From Candidatus Paenibacillus intestinavium (lineage in GTDB: Bacteria; Bacillota; Bacilli; Paenibacillales; Paenibacillaceae): DNA of 50,389 bases. The stretch is from positions 1 through 50,389 of the forward strand of contig DXHF01000327.1 of assembly GCA_019113605.1 (NCBI GenBank), in the 5' to 3' direction. The notes beneath the pieces are model-generated. The model worked only from the letters and a program-made list of their open reading frames with translations, ran no database searches and was not told where the DNA came from. Shown here piece after piece: positions 6,935-7,941 of the stretch. Both the position numbers and the translations under genes were made by a program. Position 1 is the first letter of the stretch. Each line of letters starts with the position of its first letter.

Positions 6935-7027
6935 CTTTACACACCACCTTTCTAATGTTTTGTTACTTTTATTGTCGTTCACTATCACTACTAAGGCACT
7001 ACGGATTTCGGGAGCTATTTCTTTGCC

Positions 7028-7046: not shown

Positions 7047-7078
7047 TATTTAATTTACAAAGAACAATATATGTAAAG

Positions 7079-7097
7079 GGGAATGTGCGCTATTCCC
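7079..7097 (-). terminator. Hairpin downstream of the ribozyme, possible weak terminator
   Basis: GGGAAT-AGCGCAC-ATTCCC followed by CTTTA; the U tract is short. Confidence 0.45.
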
Positions 7098-7104
7098 TCG
7101 TGGC

Positions 7105-7171
7105 GGATATCCGCGACCATCGCCCTTGAGGGCTAGGTTTCGTTCGCTATCCTTACGAACTCATCAGGCGG
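7105..7171 (-). ncRNA. Type I hammerhead ribozyme with a loop II pseudoknot
   Basis: Minus strand CCGC-CUGAUGA-GUUCG(UAAGGAUAG)CGAAC-GAA-ACC(UA GCCC UCAA GGGC GAU)GGU-C^GCGG-A-UAUCC; all core residues are present; GGAUA in loop II pairs with UAUCC. Confidence 0.92.
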
Positions 7172-7314
7172 TCAATCTCATTCAGTGCATCATAAGGATT
7201 GAATCTTCTTGTCTCTGGACTGAATATTGGATCGTTTACCCTACAACTTCTCGCATCATATAAAAATTGAATCTCAAACCCTTTATGTGTCGTTAAGGTT
7301 GTCCATTCTTTCAT
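7153..7314 (-). CDS. Small protein (53 aa, not in the ORF track) whose 3' end overlaps the hammerhead
   Basis: AAGGAGTG RBS; MKEWTTLTTHKGFEIQFLYDARSCRVNDPIFSPETRRFNPYDALNEIDRLMSS*. Confidence 0.7.
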   Translation of the reverse strand: MKEWTTLTTHKGFEIQFLYDARSCRVNDPIFSPETRRFNPYDALNEIDRLMSS

Positions 7315-7376
7315 TTCAACCACTCCTTGTTTTTAATTTGGATTAACGCAACCCTAGTAGTTGCCCTCAATCATTA

Positions 7377-7574
7377 TCAAATTGAGAATCCAAGAATTCC
7401 TCTTTCATATGTGACGATAGTGATGCAATCGCTATCGTCGTTCTTGTGAGTGATATTTCCAAGCATCACCTCGTGACGTGCAGCTAGCTTATCGATGTTT
7501 TTCGTGTTGTGCTCCAAATCGACTACCTTTACCAAGTTCATATTCCCATCTACAATCTTAATGCATCCAAACAT
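7377..7574 (-). CDS. Small hypothetical protein (65 aa)
   Basis: AAGGAGG RBS before ATG 7574 (MFGCIKIVDG...); the longer track ORF runs through the promoter region. Confidence 0.7.
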   Translation of the reverse strand: MFGCIKIVDGNMNLVKVVDLEHNTKNIDKLAARHEVMLGNITHKNDDSDCITIVTYERGILGFSI

Positions 7575-7597: not shown

Positions 7598-7699
7598 TAT
7601 ACGATAATCTATGTCGTATATAAGTTGTTACCTTAATAATATACGACTTCGTATATTTAGTCAATGGGTATTGAAAATTAATATACAACATCGTATAAT
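7598..7699. promoter_or_regulatory. Divergent sigma-A promoters with palindromic operators
   Basis: Minus strand TTGACT(7664-7659)-17-TATTAT(7641-7636); plus strand TTGAAA(7671-7676)-17-TATAAT(7694-7699); operators ATATACGA-CT-TCGTATAT 7639-7656 and ATATACAA-CA-TCGTATAA 7681-7698; extra half-sites at 7598-7604 and 7614-7620. Confidence 0.85.
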
Positions 7700-7722: not shown

Positions 7723-7941
7723 ATGACCAAAACCGTTAAAGTAAGACCTAATCTCACAGCACTCTTGAAATCTAGAGGCATTACTCAAATGGAGTTATCC
7801 GAGATGACTGGAGTTCCACAAGGATCAATTAGTCGTTTTGATAAAAATGAACGTCATGAAGCAAATATTTTATTTTCAATATCGCAAGCATTAAATATTA
7901 GCATTGAGGATTTATTTGTCATTGAGGAGCAAGAAGGGTAA
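7723..7941 (+). CDS. XRE/Cro-C1 family HTH regulator
   Basis: LLKSRGITQMELSEMTGVPQGSISRF...ALNISIEDLF; GAGGTG RBS. Confidence 0.9.
   Translation: MTKTVKVRPNLTALLKSRGITQMELSEMTGVPQGSISRFDKNERHEANILFSISQALNISIEDLFVIEEQEG

What the first reader, a model, noticed from the sequence alone, without database searches (positions are those of the whole stretch)
7115..7314. Ribozyme core doubles as coding sequence, with the stop codon in loop II
Seen: the last codons of the 53-aa ORF (GAC CGC CTG ATG AGT TCG TAA) form the stem I 5' arm, the CUGAUGA core and stem II. The stop codon is the first three bases of loop II, and the cut is 38 nt downstream. Inference: a translating or terminating ribosome must unfold the ribozyme, so cleavage would favour untranslated mRNA. 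That could make it a sensor of translation shut-off or a way to limit protein output.
Basis: partly seen in the sequence, partly recalled or inferred. Interest (0 to 1): 0.75.

Follow-up and report, generated by a model that had tools for sequence, protein, structure and literature searches.

The report
Prophage hammerhead overlapping a gene's end
A predicted self-cutting RNA (hammerhead ribozyme) in a bacterial prophage does overlap the last codons and the stop of a small gene, but relatives show that phage genes usually end flush against such ribozymes, so this overlap is most likely tight genome packing and not a purpose-built translation sensor.

Summary
On the minus strand a type I hammerhead (core 7167-7161, predicted cut 7115|7114) is built from the last codons of a 53-aa ORF; the stop is 38 nt before the cut. 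The ORF is a real small phage protein family, but none of its 14 homologous loci with a visible stop has a hammerhead behind it. The ribozyme is common in prophages of this family (64 of 401 genomes). In 143 homologues with a called upstream gene, the stop lies just before stem I in 63, is the core's own UGA in 44, and lies in stem II/loop II in only 3. So the loop II phase is not conserved, whereas 'stop flush with the ribozyme and before the cut' is the rule. Ordinary junctions in the same phages are packed almost as tightly. Best reading: a known mRNA-punctuating prophage hammerhead whose overlap comes from packing, filtered by the need to stop before the cut. Ribosome gating is untested and not excluded. 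The scan noted the same layout before on other phages.

The parts
7153..7314 (-). 53-aa ORF (P0001), small phage protein family of unknown function; last five residues (RLMSS) and stop are encoded by the ribozyme
   Evidence: homologues; no Pfam or PHROG family
7323..7328 (-). Shine-Dalgarno site, 8 nt before the ATG at 7314
   Evidence: sequence; pairing energy -8.9 kcal/mol
7168..7171 (-). Hammerhead stem I, 5' strand
   Evidence: similarity to relatives begins here (query position about 160)
7161..7167 (-). Catalytic core CUGAUGA
7142..7160 (-). Stem II (5-6 bp) and loop II; UAA stop at 7155-7153; pseudoknot strand at 7152-7148
   Evidence: family pseudoknot test
7115..7141 (-). GAAA, stem III with internal loop, GUC triplet; predicted cut between 7115 and 7114
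7111..7114 (-). Stem I, 3' strand (5' end of the downstream cleavage product)
7103..7110 (-). 3' tail: pseudoknot partner 7109-7105 overlapping a second copy of the stem I 5' strand at 7106-7103 ('decoy'), which can close a hairpin on the 5' end of the downstream product
7079..7097 (-). Covarying 6-bp hairpin of the window's subfamily
   Evidence: 5 of 6 pairs change on both sides
7054..7077 (-). Conserved A/T-rich motif (7077-7068) followed by a boxA-like sequence (7065-7054); could instead be part of a promoter
   Evidence: boxA consensus from PMC13753749
6263..6934 (-). Downstream gene, HNH endonuclease-like
   Evidence: PHROG hits; start and SD
7377..7574 (-). 65-aa ORF upstream, probably on the same transcript
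   Evidence: no family
7636..7664 (-). Sigma-70/A-type promoter-like site (10 of 12) that would drive orf65, orf53 and the ribozyme; overlaps a 9-bp perfect inverted repeat at 7638-7657
7723..7941 (+). Divergent HTH regulator (72 aa) with promoter-like site 7671-7699

Best explanation
This is a pseudoknotted type I hammerhead that is predicted to cut the prophage transcript once, 38 nt behind the 53-aa gene, and its overlap with the gene most likely arose by tight packing and not by selection for a translation sensor. Shown: the fold, the family, the gene family, the optional presence of the ribozyme in this prophage slot, and the spread of stop positions. Inferred steps: (1) an accessory block (regulator, orf65, orf53, ribozyme) was assembled at a junction inside the last codons of orf53, so that the ribozyme supplies a five-residue tail where homologues have their own tails of 2-12 residues; (2) the junction survived because this frame meets a UAA in loop II before the cut, whereas a gene running past the cut would be left without a stop; (3) the ribozyme folds through stem I plus the loop II pseudoknot whenever no ribosome covers it, and since the cut is a single irreversible event, translation would slow it but not forbid it; (4) the cut separates the accessory genes from the downstream operon, and the downstream product likely folds a 5'-terminal hairpin with the decoy strand, which would release it and shield its 5'-OH end from RNase J.
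For: Loop II phase rare: 3 of 143, 8 of 120 in hammerheads with other stems, 1 of 22 called in titled Bacillota genomes. Stops beyond the cut are rare: 2 of 143, 3 of 120. Offsets vary among homologous genes: 11 of 17 clusters, e.g. one family with stops at +1 and +11, another at -8 and -67. ORF homologues lack the ribozyme (0 of 14). Of 24 other loci with the downstream HNH-like gene, none encodes orf53 or orf65 and 2 show a plausible hammerhead within about 1.5 kb upstream. Plain junctions in the same phage loci are packed flush: next SD overlaps or lies within 5 nt of the stop in 155 of 272, and in 23 of 34 junctions of this prophage. In this host 106 of 364 predicted terminators start within 12 nt of a stop, so RNA structure under the terminating ribosome is tolerated; B. 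subtilis is reported to do the same (PMC7858274 passages). Prophage hammerheads flanking genes, with pseudoknots and shown to cleave, are described in PMC3088659.
Against: Ribozymes are closer to stops than the controls: 115 of 143 (80%) overlap or lie within 5 nt, against 57% for plain junctions and 46 of 364 (13%) for host terminators. Among genes that enter the ribozyme, the core UGA is used more often than 'random frame plus stop before the cut' predicts (0.86 against 0.66, p about 0.008 on rounded cluster weights), so depth of overlap is under some further selection. The decoy strand is conserved (130 of 178; control windows 5-20) and is just what an attenuator-like switch would need. In nested folding the decoy hairpin beats stem I (-26.3 against -24.9 kcal/mol, pseudoknot not scored). 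No cleavage, expression or translation data exist for this locus.
Confidence: 0.65

Rival explanations
1. Family-wide ribosome gating: phage hammerheads are selected to lie under the terminating ribosome; while it covers the stem I 5' strand, the 3' strand is caught by the downstream decoy and the ribozyme is latched off, so that cutting, and the fate of the downstream mRNA, report on translation of the upstream gene. The window would be a deep-overlap case of this general design.
For: Stops at -14..+1 in 107 of 143 (shifted anchors give 1-8 of 62-97) across 100 protein clusters, and in 101 of 120 hammerheads with other stem I sequences (in a subset 93 of 111 against 2-7 of 43-76 at shifted anchors); TAA itself forms stem I in 35 of 244. 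Decoy in 130 of 178, in all 18 aligned subfamily members, and in 35 of 203 with other stems against a partner-swap mean of 12.7, maximum 22. With the ribosome footprint blocked in silico the decoy hairpin dominates.
Against: 27 of 143 have the stop 15-90 nt upstream and 40 of 183 have no called gene; homologous genes tolerate -8 or -67; the decoy also dominates without a ribosome in nested folding, so the model does not discriminate; the decoy is equally explained by product release and 5'-end protection; most hammerheads with other stems lack it (168 of 203) yet are just as flush with stops.
Confidence: 0.2
2. One reading: this ORF and its loop II stop form a dedicated leader-like device that senses translation shut-off or caps the output of the 53-aa protein.
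For: The overlap is real and deep (stem I, core, stem II); good SD; the stop abuts the pseudoknot strand.
Against: Phase not conserved from either side; the ORF is an ordinary folded-looking phage protein family found without the ribozyme; the cut does not damage the ORF.
Confidence: 0.07
3. The copy is a mostly inactive passenger: the decoy hairpin and an upstream mispairing with the cleavage triplet trap it, and the overlap is tolerated because the ribozyme no longer matters.
For: Minimum-energy folds do not give the hammerhead (z-score -0.56); the ribozyme is optional in this slot.
Against: All core residues are intact, the pseudoknot is a perfect 5 bp (duplex -5.7 kcal/mol), nested folding programs cannot score it, and the decoy is family-wide, not a lesion.
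Confidence: 0.08

Closest known systems
Prophage hammerhead ribozymes flanking single genes or short gene blocks, with a stem I-loop II pseudoknot (Perreault et al. 2011, PMC3088659; read parts 1-4 of 8 plus passages; supplements not seen)
   Same: Consensus core, type I topology, pseudoknot as tertiary contact, prophage setting among variable small genes, proposed processing of polycistronic RNA.
   Different: Single copy here. The paper's main text has no hit for 'ribosome' or 'translation' and no passage on stop codons at ribozymes; it does not describe the decoy strand, the 3' hairpin or the boxA-like motif in the parts read. Its Dataset S1 may hold members of this family.
Rfam hammerhead clan CL00010 (HH9, RF02275)
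   Same: Core and stems align.
   Different: 14.1 bits against a gathering score of 52; no Rfam family reaches threshold, so this abundant phage family is not captured at this locus.
glmS ribozyme and RNase J1 in Bacillus subtilis (PMC3997798, passages)
   Same: Self-cleavage leaves a 5'-OH downstream product in a host group that has a 5' exonuclease (RNase J in this host was not checked).
   Different: glmS is ligand-gated, lies in a 5' UTR and triggers decay; here no ligand site is apparent and the product begins with a predicted hairpin.
Intrinsic terminators next to stop codons in bacteria with runaway transcription (Johnson et al. 2020, recalled, not held; seen only as cited in PMC7858274 passages)
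   Same: RNA structure placed under the terminating ribosome's footprint; 106 of 364 predicted terminators in this host.
   Different: The ribozyme has no narrow time window and overlaps more deeply; the flush layout also occurs in phage hammerheads with other stems whose hosts are unknown, so runaway transcription is not required to explain it.
Ribosome-mediated attenuation (leader peptide with alternative 1:2 / 2:3 pairing; from general knowledge)
   Same: Stem I 5' strand : 3' strand : decoy form a mutually exclusive 1:2 / 2:3 set with segment 1 under the ribosome.
   Different: No regulatory codons or stalling motif, upstream genes are unrelated full proteins, output would be cleavage and not termination; no functional evidence.

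Membership tests
Type I hammerhead ribozyme | Core C3-U4-G5-A6-N7-G8-A9, G12-A13-A14, A15.1-U16.1, H17 | tested here: met
   invariant in 18 relatives apart from N7 (partly fixed by the search pattern)
Type I hammerhead ribozyme | Stems II and III closed by loops, stem I open; stems supported by covariation | tested here: met
   stems II and III vary on both sides; stem I invariant and so uninformative in that set; other stem I pairs seen in related phage hammerheads
Type I hammerhead ribozyme | [quoted passage not shown] | tested here: met
   5-bp pairing in the window; mean 3.77 bp in 178 homologues against 2.89 +/- 0.06 with partners swapped, maximum 3.05 in 300 swaps
Type I hammerhead ribozyme | Self-cleavage after H17 | not testable with these tools
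   no RNA holder listed; predicted only
Rfam HH9 (RF02275) | Score at or above gathering threshold | tested here: not met
   14.1 against 52 bits
Prophage hammerheads that punctuate gene blocks (Perreault 2011) | Prophage context next to variable small genes | tested here: met
   integrase, repressor, replication genes; 100 upstream protein clusters in 143 homologues
Prophage hammerheads that punctuate gene blocks (Perreault 2011) | Several copies flanking single genes | tested here: not met
   one copy in the assembly, which is 84% complete; relatives do have clusters
Translation-coupled attenuator-like switch | Conserved phase between ORF and RNA element | tested here: not met
Translation-coupled attenuator-like switch | Mutually exclusive pairings with one segment under the ribosome | tested here: inconclusive
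   decoy conserved but folding does not discriminate states
Translation-coupled attenuator-like switch | Output depends on translation | not testable with these tools
   needs experiment

The most novel reading that the evidence does not exclude
Phage type I hammerheads are natural ribosome-gated ribozymes: about four in five of those with a called upstream gene sit under the terminating ribosome, often using the core's own UGA or a stem I TAA as the stop, and in this Firmicutes family a conserved decoy strand latches the ribozyme off while the gene is translated, so that cleavage couples downstream mRNA fate to upstream translation.
Probability: 0.2. Interest if true: 0.72.

Novelty: new member of a known kind. 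Interest (0 to 1): 0.3.

Why it matters
As it stands: one more prophage hammerhead, with a rare but explainable overlap. The purpose of phage self-cleaving ribozymes is still open (PMC6765202, passages). The family counts give a cheap, precise experiment: natural variants with the stop at -67, -8, +1, +11, +12 and +44 exist, and this locus is the deep-overlap end of that series. If translation does gate cleavage it would be a natural protein-free link between translation and mRNA processing; if not, the counts still show how coding sequence and a ribozyme can share bases, and that genes almost never run past the cut.

Tried and rejected
Rfam at gathering score: nothing in the window. Exact-subfamily pattern in IMG/VR: 0 hits. 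Word-based protein search found only the ORF itself, which first suggested an orphan; profile and exhaustive searches overturned this. Of the 7 hits only P0006 was taken as a homologue; P0002-P0005 and P0007 are long, mostly repetitive matches and were dropped (only P0006 and P0007 were read). DNA loci for ORF relatives in IMG/VR and metagenomes: none confirmed, so P0006 has no genomic context. ESM Atlas: nearest clusters unnamed, scores under 0.9, a lead only. Pfam and PHROG name almost none of the upstream proteins (1 of 39 and 4 of 37; only classes at or inside the core were submitted), so completeness of those genes could not be tested that way. Sequencing runs: no RNA holder listed; two DNA runs cover only the downstream gene, one diverging at 7008 on a single 151-nt contig; no weight given. 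Nested folding cannot score the pseudoknot. A taxonomic test of runaway transcription failed for lack of Proteobacterial true hits in the GTDB scan; cyanobacterial copies mostly had no called gene (9 of 12), possibly because my caller needs an SD. A target-site-duplication reading of the repeated stem I strand was considered and set aside because the sequence is fixed and part of the fold. Literature searches listed no paper on ribosome control of a natural phage hammerhead; only open-licence papers are searched. A 2026 preprint (10.64898/2026.03.05.709948, passages) notes the two UGA triplets in the core but not their use as stops of phage genes.

Full report
Setting. The window is contig C189 of a 4.57-Mb, 84% complete assembly. 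Bases 1-22800 are a prophage: integrase, repressor, metalloprotease, ParB-like, helicase, SSB, replication initiator, clamp, resolvase. The host is inferred to be Paenibacillaceae-like from a match to Paenibacillus phage Pd_22F and from named Paenibacillus and Cohnella records with the same ribozyme pattern. The finding lies in a small block between a 102-aa gene and an HNH-like gene: a divergent HTH regulator, a promoter-like site with a palindrome, a 65-aa ORF, the 53-aa ORF and the ribozyme.

Observation. A descriptor search finds this one site in the whole assembly. Two features were missed: a 5-bp pseudoknot between loop II and the tail 3' of stem I, and a second copy of the stem I 5' strand at 7106-7103 that overlaps the pseudoknot strand and can pair with the stem I 3' strand instead.

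The ribozyme family. BLAST of the ORF plus ribozyme against 301 family genomes gave matches in 35; the strong ones begin at the first base of stem I and do not include the ORF. From 221 loci a structure filter kept 186 unique hammerheads. The pseudoknot is supported family-wide (3.77 bp against 2.89 with partners swapped, 178 sequences). Twenty of 258 share the window's 3' motif; 18 of these 20 were aligned and show covariation in stems II, III and a downstream hairpin.

Is the ORF real? Probably. It has an SD at good spacing. One homologue came from 1.84 billion representatives (P0006, 45% identity over the full length), two from family genomes, and a four-sequence profile matched 13 of 400 other genomes. 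The short homologues end 2-12 residues after the conserved last helix; the window has five, all read from ribozyme bases. Of the 15 loci, one is cut at a contig end and one is a weak match in a long frame; none of the 14 with a visible stop has a hammerhead core from 30 nt before to 250 nt after it, and one (L377) has a hammerhead about 215 nt upstream of the gene instead. Among 24 other loci holding the downstream HNH-like gene (three pairs are near duplicates), none encodes orf53 or orf65, seven carry the regulator without a recognisable hammerhead in the 1.5 kb seen, and two carry a plausible hammerhead, judged by eye from pattern hits. The ORF, the ribozyme and the slot are therefore independent modules.

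Phase in homologues. I called upstream genes with a home-made rule (SD pairing at or below -8 kcal/mol, at least 35 codons; no trained gene caller was available). Of 183 hammerheads with enough upstream DNA, 40 had no call; of 143 called, the stop began at -90..-31 in 13, -30..-15 in 14, -14..-1 in 63, at the core UGA in 44, in stem II/loop II in 3 (the window is one), in stem III in 4 and beyond the cut in 2 (offsets from C3). The proteins fall into 100 clusters and the weighted shares are similar. With the anchor shifted by 300-750 nt only 1-8 of 62-97 calls fall in the same window, against 105 of 139. The window's reading frame is used in 2 of 143. Independent sets agree: among IMG/VR type I hammerheads found without fixing stem I (244 in all), 195 with other stems had enough DNA, 120 had a call at -6 kcal/mol, and of these 77 stop at -14..-1, 24 at the core UGA, 8 in stem II/loop II, 3 beyond the cut and 8 further upstream. 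The titled Bacillota genomes are looser: 11 of 22 called at -14..+1, 9 further upstream, 1 in loop II, 1 beyond. In the window's own subfamily 11 of 18 called stop at -14..-1, 3 at the core UGA, 2 in stem III, 1 at -67, and only the window in loop II. Within protein clusters the offset drifts in 11 of 17. These samples are related and capped, so p-values overstate.

Packing or design? At ribozyme-free junctions in the same loci, the next SD overlaps or lies within 5 nt of the stop in 155 of 272 (gaps over 150 nt left out), and in 23 of 34 junctions of this prophage. For ribozymes the figure is 115 of 143. Host terminators are looser (46 of 364 within 5 nt, 106 within 12 nt). So ribozymes are packed like gene starts, somewhat tighter. 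If a gene loses its stop and runs into the ribozyme, one frame meets the core UGA at once, and the other two meet a stop before the cut in only 48 and 38 of 183 sequences; this alone predicts a core-UGA share of 0.66, against 0.86 seen. Most of the pattern is thus 'flush, and stop before the cut'; a residue of selection against deep overlap remains, which makes the window's layout a tolerated exception and not the favoured design.

Mechanism. Shown: anatomy and distributions. Inferred: the hammerhead folds and cuts when free of ribosomes. A pseudoknotted natural hammerhead cut at over 1.2 per min in 0.5 mM Mg2+ in PMC3088659, and tandem prophage copies cut during transcription and in E. coli; a single irreversible cut needs only gaps between ribosomes, and in B. 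subtilis-like hosts RNA polymerase is reported to outrun the first ribosome (PMC7858274 passages). The 5' product keeps the ORF and its stop. The 3' product starts with 5'-OH, a substrate for RNase J1 in the glmS case (PMC3997798 passages), and is predicted to begin with the decoy hairpin. The decoy is conserved (130 of 178, controls 5-20; 35 of 203 with other stems against 12.7 by swapping). It fits product release and end protection, and it equally fits an off-latch when a ribosome holds the 5' strand. Folding cannot separate these, since the decoy wins with or without a blocked footprint when the pseudoknot is not scored. That is the open door for the gating model, which I put at 0.2.

Comparison and novelty. 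Prophage hammerheads with pseudoknots between small variable genes are known since 2011 (PMC3088659: parts 1-4 of 8 and passages read; supplements not seen and may list family members); their purpose is called unresolved in PMC6765202 (passages) and activity in vivo was shown for type II copies in PMC8782182 (passages). Seven literature searches listed nothing on ribosome control of such ribozymes or on their base-level fit to stop codons. Earlier notes of this scan describe the same overlap in other phages and mostly call it packing; I read them after logging a similar view, and they prompted the controls.

Noticed in passing
window 7097-7054 (-), and L004, L006, L008, L010, L070, L081, L152, L154, L167, L181, L194, L197, L213-L215, L226, L345: A subfamily of 20 hammerheads carries a covarying hairpin, a conserved A/T-rich motif and, in 17 of 20, a boxA-like sequence about 50 nt behind the cut (13 of 238 in the rest; 0 in two control windows). 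The same kind of sequence stands in the three contigs of this genome with a 16S motif. It may recruit NusB/S10 antitermination to the downstream operon, or be part of a promoter; unresolved.
   Followed up: partly
window 7604-7697: Three related imperfect palindromes (one a perfect 9-bp inverted repeat at 7638-7657) overlap the two divergent promoter-like sites: likely operators of the 72-aa HTH protein, which would control the orf65-orf53-ribozyme transcript.
   Followed up: partly
IMG/VR loci L387-L648: In 35 of 244 phage type I hammerheads the three innermost stem I pairs are TAA with TTA, i.e. a stop triplet is itself the 5' strand of stem I.
   Followed up: partly
L237-L241, L254-L258, L261-L266 (Clostridia MAG contigs); L091, L057, L097: Runs of three to seven hammerheads, each between small genes, within a few kb.
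   Followed up: no
L223, L224, L227, L234, L236, L244, L245, L251, L267, L274, L281, L282, L295: Cyanobacterial genomes hold a related type I hammerhead with a different, longer pseudoknot tail, almost never the decoy (1 of 13) and mostly no SD-led upstream gene.
   Followed up: no
L377:1268-1338: A hammerhead with an A at core position 7 and a wobble in stem I stands upstream of an orf53 homologue, flush with the stop of the gene before it, and keeps the decoy.
   Followed up: partly
L070, L186, L194, L197: One upstream protein family looks HicB-antitoxin-like (label recalled from the sequence, not from a call) and sits at -8 or about -68 from the ribozyme.
   Followed up: no
L021:3835-4119 (Paenibacillus phage Pd_22F): An annotated hypothetical CDS ends at the start of the matching ribozyme region in a cultured phage, a possible experimental host for the test.
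   Followed up: no
window 7171-7175 with 7116-7121 (-): The Asp-Arg codons can pair with the strand that holds the cleavage triplet, an alternative inactive fold that a passing ribosome would undo (minimum-energy fold).
   Followed up: no
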